NCBI RefSeq assembly: GCF_009914755.1
Contig: NC_060933.1
Direction: 5' to 3' (one strand)
Source: the human T2T-CHM13v2.0 reference genome, Homo sapiens
Length of the DNA stretch: 64,000 nucleotides
In this document: positions 6,526 through 64,000 of the stretch, one piece after another
Layout: every line of letters starts with the position of its first letter
How positions within the stretch are numbered: position 1 is the stretch's first letter
The notes under the pieces: model-generated
What the model was told of the DNA's origin: nothing
The model's input: the letters and a program-made list of their open reading frames with translations, nothing else
The model's database searches: none
Made by a program: the position numbers and the translations under genes

Positions 6526-9500
6526 CCAGAAACTATTCAAAAATGATGATAAATATAAAAGATTTTTTTTGTTAAAGAATTTAGTCTAAAGCAAAAATAT
6601 TACCACTGTATTCTGGGGTTTATTACACACATAAAATTAAGATGTATGACAACAGCATAAATGATGCAAGAGAAATTGGAAGTATATTGTTGTAAGGTTC
6701 TTCTAACTATACATGAAGTGGTACACCATTTGAGGTTTGTATAAGTTGAACATGCATATTTTAAAACCTGGAGAAGCCACTGAAACCTTTTTTTAAATAA
6801 AGAGCTGTAACTAATAAGCCAATAATGGAGATAAAATCAAGAAAATACTCAATCCAAAAGAAAGTGAGAAAAAAGAAAATGGGACAAGTAGAAAATAGCA
6901 AAATGGCGAGATTACATTCAACCACATCCATAATTACTGTAAACTAATTTCCAATTAAAAGACATCAGATTGAATTAAAAAACAAGACCCATCGGTCTTC
7001 AAGATGGCTGATTAGAAGCATCTGGTACTCACCTTCTCCATAAAGAACCAAAATAGTGAATAGATAATCACAGTTCGAATAGATTATCTAGGAGAGAACA
7101 CTAAAATTCAACAGAGAAGTGAACAGGAAACACCTAAAACAAGGAAGGAGAGGGAAGTGAGGCAGCCTGCTCAGCTGGGATTGGCTGGGAGCCTGTAGAG
7201 ACTTCCCAATGAAGGGAAAGGGTAAGGGATAGACCCCCCAGCAGTCCACATTTTTATTGCAGACTCCTACAATCCTAACCACAGGAGAGCCCCCTCAATC
7301 CTTGTGGGCCCTGAGACTAACATAGGGAGCTGCTGGAAGACCATCTGATGGTATTGCTCCAGAAAGGGAGCTAAGGCTGAGTCTTGCATACCCTGAGTTC
7401 TAAGCAGCTACAGCAAGGTCCCATTTTGAGAGCCAGCACCTCCATGCGCCACCAGGCAGCCTGGGGACAGGTTTGCCTAGACTGGCTCTGTACCCCCTAG
7501 TCCCCGAGCACACTGTCAGGGGCCCTGGGGATTGCCCAGCTCAGCCCACCGCCATTGACGCCTGAGCACTCCTCCCAGGATCCTGAGGTCATCAGGCCCA
7601 CCCAACCTGCCACTACCATCACAGATGTCACCCACCTGTATATGCCACCCTGTGAGCCTAGGGACTGGCCCTCCCAGCCTGTCACAGCCACTGCCAATGC
7701 TAGCATGGACCACTCGGGAACCAGAGAACTGTCCCACCAGTGCTACTGCCTTGGCTTATGCCATGCTGACTATCCAGGGGCCTGACAAACTGCCTACCTG
7801 CTCAGCCCACCATTGTCACTACCCAGCACCCAAGCAAGCCAACTGGAGGGCCAAGAATCTGCCCATCTGAACCTGCTAATATACCAGTGACAGCATACCC
7901 CACCCGGGGGCCCAAGGACAGGCATGCTCAGCCCACTCGTGCCATCACCGAGAACTGAGGACCGGCCCACCTATGTCCCTGTCCGCAGCAAAACTTCACC
8001 ACAGCCTCCACTAAATGGACCCTAAGCCACTGAGAAAATCACAGACACCATTGACACTATTTATACCTAAAGAAAACATACAGAGACTACACTACTGCAC
8101 ACACTGAGAATCAAAGCCACAGTGCCCTACCCAACCAACACCACATATACATCTTCAGGAAAAAGTCCTCCACTATGAAAGCAAATCCAAAACAATTCGA
8201 AGAAGTTACTGTTAGAACAGATGTGCCGAGAAAAATGTAAGGACACAACAAACATGAAAAAGCAGGGAAATATAACACCTTCAAGGGCACACAATAATTC
8301 TCCAGCAACAGATTCCAATGAAAAAGAAATTTATGAAGTACCAGAAAAAGAATTCAAAATAATGATATTAAAGAAGCTCAGTGAGATAGAAGAGCACACA
8401 ACAAATACAAAAAATAATGAGAAATTTACCAAAGACGCAACGATCATGAAAAAAAAAAAACACCAAATTTTGGAACTGATGAATTCACTGAATGAAACAC
8501 AATATACATTTAAAAGCTTCAAAAATAGATCAAGCAGAACAAAGAATTGCAGAACTTGCAGACAGGTCTTTTGAAATAACCCAGTCAGACAAAAATAAAG
8601 AAAAAAGAATGAACAAAGCCTACATGACATATGGGACACCATAAAATGACCAATATTCAAATTTTTGGTGTTCCAGAATGCAAAGAGAAAAGGGATAGAA
8701 AATCCATTTAATGAAACAGTAGCTGAAAACTTCCCTGGTCTAGTAAGAGATTTAAAGATCCAATACAGGAAGTTTAGAGATCCCCAAACAGATGCAATTC
8801 AAAGAGGTCTTCACGACACATGGTCGTCAAATTTCAAAGACAGAGAATTCCAAAAACAGCAAGAGGATAGTGTCTAGTCACTTATAAGGGATCCCCCAAC
8901 TGACTAAGCAGAATTCTCAATGGAAACCCTACAGGCCAGGAAAGAATGGGATGGTATAGACAATGAGCTGAGAGAAAAAACTGCCAGCCAAGGACGCTAC
9001 ACCCAGCAAAGTTATCCATCATAAATGAATGAGAAGTAGTCTTTCCCAGACAAGCAACAGTTGAGGGAATTCATCACACTAGGTGAGCCCTACAAGAAAT
9101 GTTTAAGAGAGTCCTGGAAGGAAAACAATGATACACACCACCACAAAAACACAAAATTACAAACCCCACTGATAGAGCAAAGACACAAATGAGAAAGGAC
9201 TCAAACACTACCACTACAGAAAACCACCAAATCACAATAATAAATAAGAGAGAAAGGGAGGAACAAGGGATATATAAAACAAGTAGCTATCAAGTAATAA
9301 AATGACAGGAATTAGCTCTTACGTGTCAATAATAACCTTGAATGTAAACAGATTAAACTTTTCACTTGAAAGTTACAGGCTGGCCAAATGGATTTAAAAA
9401 AAAACGTGGCCCATCCGTAAGCTGCCTAAAAGAAACTCGTCTCACTTGTAAGAACATATACAGACAAATGAAAGACATGGAAAAAGAGATTCCAATCAAA

Positions 9501-55790: not shown

Positions 55791-56691
55791 AAAAAGTTTT
55801 TTCTTTTTAACTTTAGAGGTAAGTCTTTGCAATGTTGCCCAGGCTGGGGTGCAGTGGCTATTACTAGAGGTGCAATCACAGCACACAGCACACTACACCC
55901 CTGAACTCCTGGGCTCAAGCAGTCCTCCTGACTCAGGGACTACTGGTGTTTGCCACCATGCCCAACCCAAGTATTTTTTTTTTCTTTTCGGTGTAAGTAA
56001 GTAACCCATACCAAGTATTTCTTAATGTTGCAAAGATATTCCTACTACTCTGATGCAGGAAAAATATTAAAATCATCAAACATAAAATAAAAGGTGAGAA
56101 GCATATGAAACTTCAGAAAGCAGTAATATTCCTATATTGCCATATTTCTAGATGCAAGGCTTATGGACAAATAAGTGATTAGTAGAAGCAGCTAATACAT
56201 GCAAATATATTACAAATTAAAATCACTTAAATGATTCAGTCAGCACCACCCTTCTCCCCACCCCCCAGCCCACTAGTGGCCTAATAAGACTAAGGAGAAA
56301 TGATTTTTTTCTGGTCATTAATATTACTTTATTGTCTACTATTCCTTTACATACAATGCCTGGCATTCAATAAAAAAAATTAAGAAACATGCAAAGAAGC
56401 AAGAAAATGTGGAACTTATTGTTATAAGGAAGCCTTCAAGAAAACAGTCGCACAAACAGAATGTAAGAATCATTAGGTAGGGATTTTAAAATAACCATGA
56501 AAAGTACGTTAAAGCACGTAGTGCAAAAGGTAGATCATGTATACAAAGAGATAGGGAATTTGGGTACAGACAGAGTATATGTGTAGGGGTGTGCATGTAT
56601 ATGTAAGTGCTAGAAATTTTTTAAAAAATCAAAAAATGAGTATAAGAGATAAAAAAAACTCTTTCTCTCTTATAAAAAAAGGAAGAAATTC

Positions 56692-56996
<305 letters not shown>

Positions 56997-57839
56997 AAGA
57001 ACTCTTTCAAAGGACTTATCAGCAGATTAGCATAGTAAATAATCAGTGAAGTTGAAGTTAGGTTAACAGAAATTATCCAAACTCTACTATAAAGGGCTGG
57101 GAGGAGAAGGAGTGGGTAGAGTCATGTGAAACCTAAGAGACGACATGAAATGGTTTGATACTTAACATACATGTAACTGGAATACCAGAAGAGAAAGAAG
57201 TAGAGGAAATGATAGAGAAATAATGTGAAGAGACATAGCAAAGAATTTCTGAATTGATGATATAGATCTACCTAAACCCCAAGACATTAGCAAATCTTAA
57301 CCAAGATAAATACAAAGGAAACCACATTTAAGACACCTCACAGTCAAACTGCTAAATAATAAAGGTGGAGGCAGGGTGGGGAGAATGGTGGGGAGAATGG
57401 TGGGGAGAATGGGGAGTAACTGCTTAATGGGTATGAGGTTTTATTCTGGGTTGATGAAATGTTTTGGATCTACACAGTGGTGACAGATGTACAATACTGT
57501 GAAGTACTGAATGTCCCTGAATTATTTAAAATGATTACTTTTGTTATATGCAATTCACCTCAATAAAAAACTGAGGGCAAAAGACATAAATATATAATTC
57601 TCAAAAAAAAAAACATGTAACATGACCCTTTAACATATGAAGATGTTCAGTTTCACTCATCATAAGAGAAATGCAAATTAAGACTATGCCAACATATAAT
57701 TTCCCACCCATCAGGTTGGCAAAAGGTCAAAGGCTTAAAACTACAGTATTTGTCAGGGCTGTGCATAAACAGGCACTTTGATACACTGCCAGTAGACAGA
57801 CAAAACAGTGCAACCCTTATAGAAGAACATAGTAATGAC

Positions 57840-62486: not shown

Positions 62487-62850
62487 CTTGCTCAGAGGTA
62501 CAGATCCCTCACTTGTTTACAACTATGTCATAATGAGGGGAATTAAAAGTTTAGTTTTTTTGCTTTGCCATAAAGCAAATTATAAAAAGATACACATCAT
62601 TGATAATTTTCGACCTAACCTTATTATTTAATTTCTAAGTAATTTCCCCTAAGCACCAGCATAAAAATTATTCAAAATAACAACTGTAATCTCACACAGA
62701 GCATCCAATAACAAATGTTAACACTTACACATGTAAAACATACAGGCACACAGCAACTATAACAATGAAGCGAGACTGTGAAACATTTTATCAAGAAACT
62801 CAAGTGTTCATACACTTTAAAAACTTGGTTAAAAATGAGGTACTATTTAC

Positions 62851-63014
62851 CATCTCTCTTTTGGAAAATTTTTTAAAATTTCTTTAATGATTGGCTGGTA
62901 ACAGGCATCCCTTTCTGCTTTCCCAGTTTCACTCCAGTCTCTCACAAACTGTTTCAGCGTGGATTTTAACTTATCCATGTCAAATGTAGATGCTGGCATA
63001 ATCTTTCCATTCCC
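62851..63014 (-). CDS. CARNMT1: CARNMT1 coding exon (probably exon 3), 164 nt
   Basis: ttttaaacAG|GGG...; [54 protein letters not shown](W); donor GTAAAT, phase 2. Contains the RDWS motif of the N2227/CARNMT1 family. Confidence 0.96.
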
Positions 63015-63091
63015 CTGTTTAAAAAACAGACATCAATTAGCTTCTGAGAGAGTAATCCACTTATATTATGGTTAAATAGACATGCTACTAA

Positions 63092-63435
63092 GGGGCTATA
63101 TAGGTGGTTTAGTGGATAAATCACTAGCCTCTCACCTCAACTGGGGTTCAAGTGCAGCTTGAGATCCTAAATGAAAAGAGTTTGGTGGTCTCACTGCTAC
63201 CCTCAAAAGATTAAGGTCCATTAATCATAAAACCACCATATAATTAAGCAGTCTTTACTCAGGAGAGGACCAAACTGAGCTGCTATGGAGACCGAACATC
63301 CTCTCTAAGAGAGGGAAGAAAGTCCCTCCAGGTCATTGATGGGGCAGCATGGAGAGGCTCACACTGGAGTGGCCCAACTGTATCCATCCTGTGGATACAA
63401 AAAGAGGACTTCAGTTTCTATGTACTGCCAGTCCC
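63092..63435 (+). mobile_element. LF-SINE (LFSINE_Vert) relic, antisense to CARNMT1
   Basis: tRNA-like head with A box TGGTTTAGTGG (63105-63115) and B box GGTTCAAGTGC (63145-63155). Collinear blocks resemble the LF-SINE consensus as recalled: ACTAGCCTCTCACCTC, GAGTTTGGTGGTCTCA, ATGGAGACCGAAC, GTCCCTCCAGGTCA, CTGTGGATA...AGAGGACTTCAGT. Confidence 0.85.
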
Positions 63436-63835
63436 TTGAGATTTATAAGTGAAAACAATTTCTTACAATAAAAGATGAACAGCAATAGATACAAGACACT
63501 GAAAAAATATGAGTTAAGCAAGGGAAATTAATTTCTAGCTAGTAAAGTTGCTTTTAAAAATTTAAGTCACTAACCCTGTATTCCAAAACAGAACATTATG
63601 TCAAAATGCATCAAAATCTCAACAGTTATATTAGTACTTAAAAAAGGAAAACAAGTGAACAGATCCAGTCTCTGGCTATTAAGCCTAATCAAATGACTGA
63701 ACATTTAAGTTAAAACTTTCTGAGTAGAGCAAATAGCCTGTGCCAGATTATAAAAATGAAATCCAGAAAATAAAAGACCTCAAAATACAGAGGTTGACCC
63801 TAAAATAAACAGAAATAGAACAAACTTTCACATAC

Positions 63836-64000
63836 ATCTTCTCCATATTCTTTATTTTCAAACATATGTATGCAATCATTCACAATGGTCAGTAGTATTT
63901 CTTGATTATGATCAATGCATTTCCGGATCTTGTCCAAGTGAAGAAGAAACTGAGGAAGTAGTTTCTGTTGGTTAGCTGGAAGTGATCGAAACTGTCTTTC
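63836..64000 (-). CDS. CARNMT1: CARNMT1 coding exon (probably exon 2; 5' part outside the window)
   Basis: Minus strand reads [55 protein letters not shown], then donor GTATGT (phase 0). Recognised as CARNMT1 peptide. Confidence 0.95.

What the first reader, a model, noticed from the sequence alone, without database searches (positions are those of the whole stretch)
63092..63435. Ancient LF-SINE antisense in a short CARNMT1 intron forms a candidate poison exon
Seen: a ~345 bp tRNA-headed element lies in the 821-nt intron, under 80 nt from the next exon. On the gene strand it gives the acceptor CTGAAGTCCTCTTTTTGTATCCACAG|G (AG at 63390-63389) and the donor TTGAG|GTGAGA (GT at 63135-63134). 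That defines a 253-nt exon (63388-63136) between introns of 447 and 121 nt. Spliced in phase 0 after ...EYGED it reads DGYSWATPV* (TGA at 63361-63359), upstream of six more exons, so it would be an NMD substrate. Known: LF-SINE is a rare family several hundred million years old whose surviving human copies are mostly conserved and exapted. Exonised copies are typically antisense and use the homologous ...TATCCACAG acceptor region, as in the PCBP2 alternative exon. Inference: this copy has been kept as a regulatory cassette exon or an enhancer.
Basis: partly seen in the sequence, partly recalled or inferred. Interest (0 to 1): 0.85.

Follow-up and report, generated by a model that had tools for sequence, protein, structure and literature searches.

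The report
Old SINE relic carrying a latent exon
An ancient LF-SINE retroposon relic lies backwards in a short CARNMT1 intron and offers strong splice sites around a stop-containing 253-base exon, but nothing yet shows that cells use or need that exon.

Summary
Every coordinate in the finding checks out: AG at 63390-63389, GT at 63135-63134, a 253-nt exon, flanking introns of 447 and 121 nt, and DGYSWATPV then TGA in phase 0.

The LF-SINE call is supported.
- Rfam uc_338, the LF-SINE-derived ultraconserved exon, hits 63264-63431 on the minus strand (E 1.4e-5).
- A profile built from 27 other human copies hits 63437-63232 (E 6.8e-20).

The acceptor is inherited from the family. It is homologous to the acceptor used by the coding LF-SINE exons of PCBP2 and SMARCA4. 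The family's own donor is destroyed in this copy. The proposed donor lies in the tRNA-like head, which has A and B boxes but no tRNA-model hit.

Both candidate sites outscore every real CARNMT1 site in the window. However, the acceptor sits in the loop of a 9-bp hairpin.

Use of the exon and its conservation could not be tested. No RefSeq transcript in the hub table includes it, and three supplementary exon lists do not contain it.

LF-SINE exons that introduce early stops were described as a class in 2006 (review passage). This is a plausible new member of a known kind, so interest is modest.

The parts
63092..63477 (+). LF-SINE relic. SINE sense is the plus strand, so it is antisense to CARNMT1. 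About 386 bp.
   Evidence: nhmmer of the window copy against the PCBP2 locus L002: E 8.4e-15, covering 63477-63167. The iterated family profile covers 63449-63154. The length fits a 391-bp coelacanth LF-SINE insertion (PMC4255032 Table 2 passage). The 5' end at 63092 rests on the box pattern only.
63232..63437 (-). Core homology to other human LF-SINE copies.
   Evidence: Leave-one-out profile from 27 other copies: 65.9 bits, E 6.8e-20. All other matches in the 64-kb window have E 2.6 or worse. Identity to the consensus of the other 25 genomic copies is 137 of 197 columns (69.5%), rank 14 of 26.
63264..63431 (-). Match to Rfam uc_338 (TUC338).
   Evidence: 30.6 bits against a gathering score of 120. 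E 1.4e-5 in 701 nt. Genome-wide E 0.015, rank 24 of 28 listed matches.
63105..63155 (+). Pol III-type A box (63105-63115) and B box (63145-63155) of the putative tRNA-like head.
   Evidence: The pattern gives 1 match in the window and 0 of 100 shuffles give any. No tRNA found by ARAGORN or Rfam. Best nhmmer E is 0.096 against 19 distinct human tRNA sequences. No match in the 27 other copies.
63389..63416 (-). 3' splice-site module: branch-point-like CTGAA (63414-63410), pyrimidine tract (63408-63391), AG (63390-63389).
   Evidence: It aligns with the same module of the PCBP2 and SMARCA4 exons. Weight-matrix score 9.51, against 4.64 or less for the 6 real acceptors.
63378..63400 (-). Hairpin with a 9-bp stem and the acceptor AG in its 5-nt loop.
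   Evidence: -9.8 kcal/mol, second most stable of 26 copies (PCBP2 -2.8, SMARCA4 -3.7). Only 58 of 2420 AG sites in the gene span fold as stably, and the real acceptors give -0.4 to -4.4.
63136..63388 (-). Candidate 253-nt cassette exon (253 = 3x84+1).
63359..63361 (-). In-frame TGA after nine codons.
   Evidence: It lies 223 nt upstream of the exon's own 3' junction.
63300..63311 (-). Position homologous to the family donor (GGTGAGAGG in PCBP2 and SMARCA4). No GT remains here.
   Evidence: Alignments.
63305..63320 (-). CU-rich tract and second acceptor (AG 63306-63305, exon start 63304).
   Evidence: score 6.53. The 169-nt exon it would give to the same donor also stops early (TAG after seven codons, read).
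63134..63135 (-). Candidate donor GT (GAG|GTGAGA).
   Evidence: Score 6.43, against 6.33 or less for the 6 real donors. It lies in the antisense of the putative head.

Best explanation
A near-full-length LF-SINE was inserted antisense into CARNMT1 intron 2.

Seen from the gene strand, this family carries a ready-made exon: a branch point, a pyrimidine tract, CCACAG|, about 93-99 nt of body, then |GTGAGAGG. PCBP2 and SMARCA4 use exactly this as a coding exon.

The CARNMT1 copy keeps the 3' splice-site module but has lost the family donor and the open frame. The next usable donor is a strong GAG|GTGAGA 160 nt further on, in the antisense of the tRNA-like head. Together they delimit a 253-nt exon with a stop after nine codons.

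How it would work (inferred). When U2AF and U1 recognise these sites, the exon is included and the stop lies far upstream of six exon junctions. The mRNA is then removed by exon-junction-dependent nonsense-mediated decay.

I expect basal inclusion to be low, for two reasons. The acceptor AG sits in the loop of a 9-bp hairpin that pairs the end of the pyrimidine tract with the first exon bases. The exon body also holds a CU-rich, PTB-type tract.

Shown: family membership, homology of the acceptor, the sites, the frame, the stop and the hairpin. Inferred: any inclusion, its level, decay of the product, and any selective value.
For: Family membership:
- uc_338 hit.
- nhmmer against the PCBP2 locus, E 8.4e-15.
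- Leave-one-out profile, E 6.8e-20, the only significant hit in 64 kb.

Ready-made exon in the family:
- Two retrocopy-like loci (L015, L016) match the PCBP2 locus only at 1538-1637, which is the exon 1541-1633 plus 3-4 nt on each side.
- The homologous 99-nt stretch of L003 is residues 1259-1291 of BRG1/SMARCA4 (E 7.4e-16).
- The homologous CAG is kept in 19 of 26 genomic copies and a GTRAG donor in 14 of 26.

Window copy:
- The acceptor is kept and the family donor is lost.
- The reading frame is the same as in PCBP2 (DGYS against DRYS).

Site strength:
- Acceptor 9.51 and donor 6.43 exceed all 6 real acceptors and all 6 real donors of CARNMT1 in the window.
- They are the strongest sites in the intron.

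Hairpin.

Precedent: a review passage states that Bejerano et al. 2006 found 19 LF-SINE-derived coding exons, 16 of them alternatively spliced and 11 introducing an early stop (PMC9148063).
Against: - No transcript evidence of any kind could be consulted.
- None of the RefSeq transcripts in the hub table has an exon in this intron.
- No CARNMT1 entry appears in the supplementary file held for PMC11632617 (1 file) or PMC10123112 (1 file).
- PMC13078869 (7 files, one cut when stored) lists only two mouse Carnmt1 exons, of 142 and 105 nt. Both lie downstream of the exon that matches human exon 3, and none lies in this intron.
- A DNA search of the genome found no second copy of the 431-nt region, so no retrocopy preserves the exon.
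- The weight matrix uses recalled frequencies and is cruder than MaxEntScan or SpliceAI.
- With sites this strong beside weak constitutive sites, low inclusion needs active repression. The hairpin and the CU tract are only candidates for that.
- The donor lies in a segment whose LF-SINE origin I could not confirm.
Confidence: 0.55

Rival explanations
1. This is a selected, regulated poison exon. Inclusion is tuned by splicing factors to set the CARNMT1 level, and the splice sites and stop are conserved across mammals or amniotes.
For: - The sites are very strong, in a short intron flanked by weak constitutive sites.
- The 3' splice-site module is almost unchanged from the family consensus.
- There is precedent for LF-SINE exons with early stops.
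- The copy is still recognisable although the family is ancient (passages).
- The hairpin could act as a regulatory gate.
Against: - The acceptor is a family trait, kept in 19 of 26 copies whatever their location.
- The donor has no known family counterpart.
- The exon is absent from RefSeq models and from the three supplementary lists searched.
- No paper pairs CARNMT1 with 'poison exon' (0 papers).
- Identity to the consensus is mid-range, 69.5%, rank 14 of 26.
- Conservation was not testable here.
Confidence: 0.15
2. The relic is kept as a DNA element, either an intronic enhancer or a TFIIIC/Pol III-type site using the A and B boxes. On this reading the splice signals are only inherited baggage that is not used.
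For: - Most conserved human LF-SINE copies are reported as non-coding, and one is a proven ISL1 enhancer (passages in PMC3649676 and PMC9148063).
- An A box and a B box with proper spacing survive on the SINE-sense strand.
- The blocks conserved here are the blocks conserved in the family at large.
Against: - RefSeq's functional-element track lists only 7705-8277 in this window (hub table).
- No chromatin or binding data could be consulted.
- The head gets no tRNA-model support.
Confidence: 0.15
3. It acts as a decoy exon. The strong but unproductive sites engage U1 and U2AF and slow removal of the 821-nt intron, which gives intron retention or detention rather than exon inclusion.
For: The internal sites are strong and the flanking constitutive sites are weak (donor score 0.51, acceptor 0.85). 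That decoy exons promote intron retention is recalled from the literature, not read here.
Against: There is no evidence of retention of this intron. The RefSeq alternative exons listed by the hub lie elsewhere.
Confidence: 0.05

Closest known systems
PCBP2 alternative exon within ultraconserved element uc.338 (Rfam uc_338/TUC338), derived from LF-SINE
   Same: - Same repeat family and same antisense orientation.
- Homologous branch point, pyrimidine tract and CCACAG acceptor.
- Same reading frame at the exon start.

   Different: - The PCBP2 exon is 93 nt, open, coding, and ends at the family donor GTGAGAGG.
- The CARNMT1 copy lost that donor, stops after nine codons, and would need a donor 160 nt further on.
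- It scores 30.6 bits against a gathering score of 120, so it is not a member of uc_338 itself.
- That L002 is PCBP2 rests on recall and on the review passage.
SMARCA4/BRG1 33-residue exon (residues 1259-1291 in PDB 6lth_I)
   Same: It is a second LF-SINE copy (L003, 177 bits to uc_338) that uses the same acceptor and donor. This shows that the antisense SINE is a reusable exon.
   Different: It is coding and in frame at 99 nt. The CARNMT1 candidate is 253 nt, frame-shifting and stop-containing.
LF-SINE-derived alternative exons that introduce early stop codons (Bejerano et al. 2006, as summarised in PMC9148063)
   Same: The same class is proposed here: an LF-SINE exon in a host gene that brings in a premature stop.
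   Different: I could not see the list of 19 exons because the paper is not held. Whether CARNMT1/C9orf41 is already on it is open. Those exons had transcript support and this one has none so far.
Antisense Alu exonisation (recalled)
   Same: An antisense SINE supplies a pyrimidine tract and acceptor, and the resulting exons are mostly low-inclusion and often NMD targets.
   Different: The family is far older. The splice module lies in the SINE body and 3' part rather than in the complement of a poly-A tail. The donor lies in the tRNA-like head.

Membership tests
LF-SINE (LFSINE_Vert) | Sequence homology to other LF-SINE copies or the consensus | tested here: met
   uc_338 hit E 1.4e-5. nhmmer against the PCBP2 copy E 8.4e-15. 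Leave-one-out profile of 27 copies E 6.8e-20. The Dfam or Repbase consensus itself was not available.
LF-SINE (LFSINE_Vert) | tRNA-derived 5' head with Pol III A and B boxes (the family is classed SINE2/tRNA: PMC5753468 passage; PMC4255032 passage) | tested here: inconclusive
   The box pattern is present once, with 0 of 100 shuffles matching (pattern chosen after seeing the sequence). No tRNA by ARAGORN or Rfam. Best E 0.096 against 19 distinct tRNA sequences of five amino-acid types only. 0 of 27 other copies match the head.
LF-SINE (LFSINE_Vert) | Unit length of roughly 390 bp or more, with an A-rich 3' end | tested here: met
   63092 to about 63477 is about 386 bp, against a 391-bp coelacanth insertion. 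Gene-sense alignments of several copies begin with T runs. The tail of the window copy itself is degraded.
LF-SINE (LFSINE_Vert) | Orthologous presence across tetrapods (ancient insertion) | not testable with these tools
   No other vertebrate genome is held.
Rfam RF02271 uc_338 | Score at or above the gathering cut-off (120 bits) | tested here: not met
   30.6 bits. Only 3 of the 28 genomic matches pass. The window copy is a family relative, not a uc_338 member.
Poison (NMD-coupled) cassette exon | Usable 3' and 5' splice sites delimiting an internal exon | tested here: met
   At sequence level only: scores 9.51 and 6.43, above all real sites of the gene in the window. The matrix values are recalled.
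Poison (NMD-coupled) cassette exon | In-frame stop more than 50-55 nt upstream of a downstream exon junction | tested here: met
   TGA at 63361-63359 lies 223 nt before the exon's 3' junction, and six exons follow (hub table). The 50-55 nt rule is established knowledge.
Poison (NMD-coupled) cassette exon | Observed inclusion that rises when NMD is blocked | not testable with these tools
   No RNA-seq access. The exon is absent from RefSeq models (hub table) and from the three supplements searched.
Poison (NMD-coupled) cassette exon | Cross-species conservation of the exon and its sites | not testable with these tools
   No orthologous sequences are held.

The most novel reading that the evidence does not exclude
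The exon is a structure-gated, deeply conserved poison exon that closes a feedback loop. CARNMT1 methylates U2AF1 His37 and so changes 3' splice-site recognition (PMC10546975 passages). Recognition of the hairpin-held LF-SINE acceptor in CARNMT1's own pre-mRNA would then depend on the activity of its own product, setting the enzyme level. One point against a direct link: the methylation effect reported there concerns weak sites with T at position -3, whereas this acceptor is strong and has C at -3.
Probability: 0.04. Interest if true: 0.75.

Novelty: new member of a known kind. Interest (0 to 1): 0.3.

Why it matters
If the exon is used, CARNMT1 would join the genes whose output is trimmed by unproductive splicing of a several-hundred-million-year-old retroposon. 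CARNMT1 is an essential histidine methyltransferase of U2AF1 and other C3H zinc-finger RNA-binding proteins (PMC10546975 passages).

The exon would also be a possible handle for antisense oligonucleotides that raise or lower the enzyme.

The family-level picture is useful independently. The antisense LF-SINE is a portable exon, with the same acceptor and donor serving PCBP2 and SMARCA4.

If the exon is not used, this is one more well-armed pseudoexon. It would then show that strong sites alone do not make an exon.

Tried and rejected
Searches for other copies and for the head:
- DNA searches of the window's own genome with the whole element and with the head plus 5' body found only the locus itself.
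- A sequence-only covariance model of the head could not be run on this genome, because the tool does not accept models there. The head's family origin therefore stays open.
- The 27 other copies show nothing tRNA-like beyond the shared body.
- The head folds no better than shuffles (z -1.05).

Chance matches set aside:
- SNORA56 (E 0.081), sau-31 (E 9.5) and fiv_FSE (E 2.1). All are far below their gathering scores.

Minor alternative sites:
- Donor at 63363 (score 1.63), which would give a 26-nt exon.
- Acceptor at 63304 (score 6.53), which also gives a premature stop.

Literature:
- CARNMT1 + 'poison exon': 0 papers.
- CARNMT1 + NMD: 10 papers, 7 listed, none about its splicing judged by title and abstract start.
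- CARNMT1 + 'exon inclusion': 3 papers, all about its substrates.
- SINE terms + gene names: 24 papers, 10 listed, and none of those 10 holds either SINE term.
- LF-SINE + SMARCA4: 0 papers.
- The broad five-term search listed 25 of 855 papers, none mentioning CARNMT1.

Closed or missing sources:
- Bejerano et al. 2006 is not held.
- Paper reading closed, so the supplement of PMC11387194 was not seen.

Constraint: a reading from identity to the consensus was judged uninformative. The alignment favours matching columns, and the age of the insertion cannot be fixed here.

Full report
**The observation.** I read 62800-64000 on the minus strand, and every coordinate in the finding is correct.
- The acceptor is ...TCCTCTTTTTGTATCCACAG|G, with AG at 63390-63389.
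- The donor is TTGAG|GTGAGA, with GT at 63135-63134.
- The exon 63388-63136 is 253 nt. The flanking introns are 447 and 121 nt within an 821-nt intron.
- The upstream exon ends in phase 0 at 63836.
- The exon reads DGYSWATPV and then TGA (63361-63359).
- By the hub's table this is intron 2 of NM_152420.3, and six exons follow.

**Is it LF-SINE?** No Dfam library is on hand, so I tested homology in three other ways.
- Rfam's uc_338 (TUC338) matches 63264-63431 on the minus strand over its full 180 positions. By recall, and by the review passage, this model represents the LF-SINE-derived ultraconserved PCBP2 exon. The score is 30.6 bits, E 1.4e-5 for the 701 nt searched. That is far below the gathering score of 120, so the copy is a relative, not a member.
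- Run over the window's own genome, the same model lists 28 matches (34 of about 143,000 first-look candidates were scored). Three pass the cut-off. The window copy ranks 24th, with a genome-wide E of 0.015.
- With the 28 loci in hand, nhmmer of the window copy against the chr12 locus L002 gives E 8.4e-15 over 63477-63167. Eight further loci give E between 6e-9 and 0.004.
- A profile iterated from L002 over the 27 other loci only, with the window copy left out, hits 63437-63232 minus at 65.9 bits, E 6.8e-20. Every other match in the 64 kb has E 2.6 or worse.

The family call is therefore sound.

The window copy matches the consensus of the other 25 genomic copies in 137 of 197 columns (69.5%), rank 14 of 26. 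I dropped L015 and L016 from these counts because they look like retrocopies of the PCBP2 mRNA.

**Orientation and extent.** In gene-sense alignments several copies begin with T runs, which are the complement of a SINE tail. On the plus strand of the window an A box (63105-63115) and a B box (63145-63155) stand 29 nt apart. The pattern occurs once in the window and in 0 of 100 shuffles, but I wrote it after seeing the sequence.

The SINE is therefore sense on the plus strand and antisense to CARNMT1. It spans about 63092-63477, about 386 bp, close to a 391-bp coelacanth insertion (PMC4255032 Table 2 passage).

The 'tRNA head' itself is not confirmed.
- ARAGORN finds nothing.
- Rfam at E<=10 finds no tRNA.
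- It folds no better than shuffles.
- The best nhmmer E against 19 distinct human tRNA sequences is 0.096. These cover only Thr, Lys, Cys, Arg and Ala.
- None of the 27 other copies matches it.

**The family carries a ready-made exon.**
- L015 (chr21) and L016 (chr5) match the L002 locus only at 1538-1637, which is the 93-nt stretch 1541-1633 plus 3-4 nt on each side. In the family alignment they diverge exactly at CCACAG| and at |GTGAGAGG. This marks the PCBP2 exon ends.
- The homologous 99-nt stretch of L003 (chr19) translates to residues 1259-1291 of BRG1/SMARCA4 in PDB chains (E 7.4e-16).
- The PCBP2 peptide itself finds that BRG1 segment at E 0.004.

Two host genes thus use the same acceptor, donor and frame. 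Across the 26 genomic copies the homologous CAG survives in 19 and a GTRAG donor in 14. A review passage reports that Bejerano et al. 2006 found 19 LF-SINE-derived coding exons, 16 of them alternative and 11 introducing an early stop (PMC9148063). I could not read the original paper.

**What the CARNMT1 copy has kept and lost.**
- It keeps the whole 3' module. This comprises CTGAA at 63414-63410, 22 nt from the AG, then the pyrimidine tract, then CCACAG.
- It opens in the PCBP2 frame (DGYS against DRYS).
- The family donor position now reads CTCTTAGAGAGG, with no GT.
- A small deletion puts a TGA in frame.
- The proposed donor is 160 nt further on, in the antisense of the head. It is therefore not the family's donor, and its SINE origin is unproven.

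**Strength against background.** I used a simple weight matrix whose frequencies are recalled.
- The acceptor scores 9.51, rank 4 of 2421 AG sites in the gene span.
- The donor scores 6.43, rank 6 of 2162 GT sites.
- Both exceed all six real CARNMT1 acceptors (-3.87 to 4.64) and all six real donors (0.51 to 6.33) in the window.
- They are by far the best sites in the intron. Only one other pair in 36.6 kb is as good (57096-56946).
- A second acceptor at 63304 (score 6.53) would also give a premature stop.

Chance alone is an unlikely source of the pair, but the acceptor is explained by ancestry.

The acceptor lies in a hairpin. Nine base pairs join 63400-63392 to 63386-63378, and CAG|GA forms the loop.
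- At -9.8 kcal/mol it is the second most stable of 26 copies (PCBP2 -2.8, SMARCA4 -3.7).
- It lies among the 58 most stable of 2420 AG sites in the gene span.
- The real acceptors give -0.4 to -4.4.

It pairs the end of the pyrimidine tract with the first exon bases. Together with a CU-rich tract at 63320-63307, it is a candidate reason why so well-armed an exon is not in the reference transcripts.

**Use and conservation.** Neither could be tested. No RNA-seq and no other vertebrate genome is available.
- No RefSeq transcript in the hub's table has an exon in this intron.
- CARNMT1 is absent from the supplement held for PMC11632617 and from that of PMC10123112.
- PMC13078869 lists only two mouse Carnmt1 exons, of 142 and 105 nt. 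By size these match downstream constitutive exons. One of its files was cut when stored.
- No paper pairs CARNMT1 with 'poison exon'. The other searches listed nothing on its splicing. In some searches only part of the hits was listed.

**Reading.** The most likely account (0.55) is an LF-SINE relic that supplies a splice-competent, stop-containing cassette. It is included rarely, and its products are removed by NMD.

The rivals are:
- a truly selected poison exon (0.15);
- a DNA-level regulatory element whose splice signals are baggage (0.15);
- a decoy exon that promotes intron retention (0.05).

The gene context adds a speculative twist. CARNMT1 methylates U2AF1 His37 and alters 3' splice-site choice (PMC10546975 passages). 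However, that effect concerns weak sites with T at -3, while this acceptor is strong with C at -3.

**Verdict.** The functional claim is open. The kind of thing proposed was described in 2006, so this is at most a new member of it. Interest is 0.3.

Noticed in passing
L003:1541-1639 (G000 C19:11160732-11160917 region): A 99-nt LF-SINE-derived stretch, flanked by the family acceptor and donor, encodes residues 1259-1291 of BRG1/SMARCA4. It scores 177 bits to uc_338. No paper in the library pairs LF-SINE with SMARCA4 (0 papers). It may be among the 19 exons of Bejerano et al. 2006, which I could not read.
   Followed up: partly
L015 (G000 C21:37556031-37556129) and L016 (G000 C5:92327928-92328022): Two loci are 76% alike over 655 nt. 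They match the PCBP2 locus only across the LF-SINE exon. They look like processed copies of a PCBP2 mRNA that included the alternative exon.
   Followed up: partly
L004 (G000 C7:88434786-88434957): A third copy above the uc_338 cut-off (171 bits). It keeps the acceptor but has no GTRAG at the donor position, and its aligned stretch has stops in two of three frames. It is presumably a non-coding conserved copy. Its gene context is unknown.
   Followed up: no
window 56946-57096, minus strand: This is the only other acceptor/donor pair in the gene span as strong as the candidate: acceptor 12.38, donor GAG|GTGAGT 7.86, 151 nt. It overlaps a stretch masked as repeat (56587-56987, hub table).
   Followed up: no
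window 63836 and 63014, minus strand: The constitutive sites that flank the intron are weak by the same matrix: donor GAT|GTATGT 0.51 and acceptor 0.85. This makes the silence of the internal exon the thing that needs explaining.
   Followed up: partly
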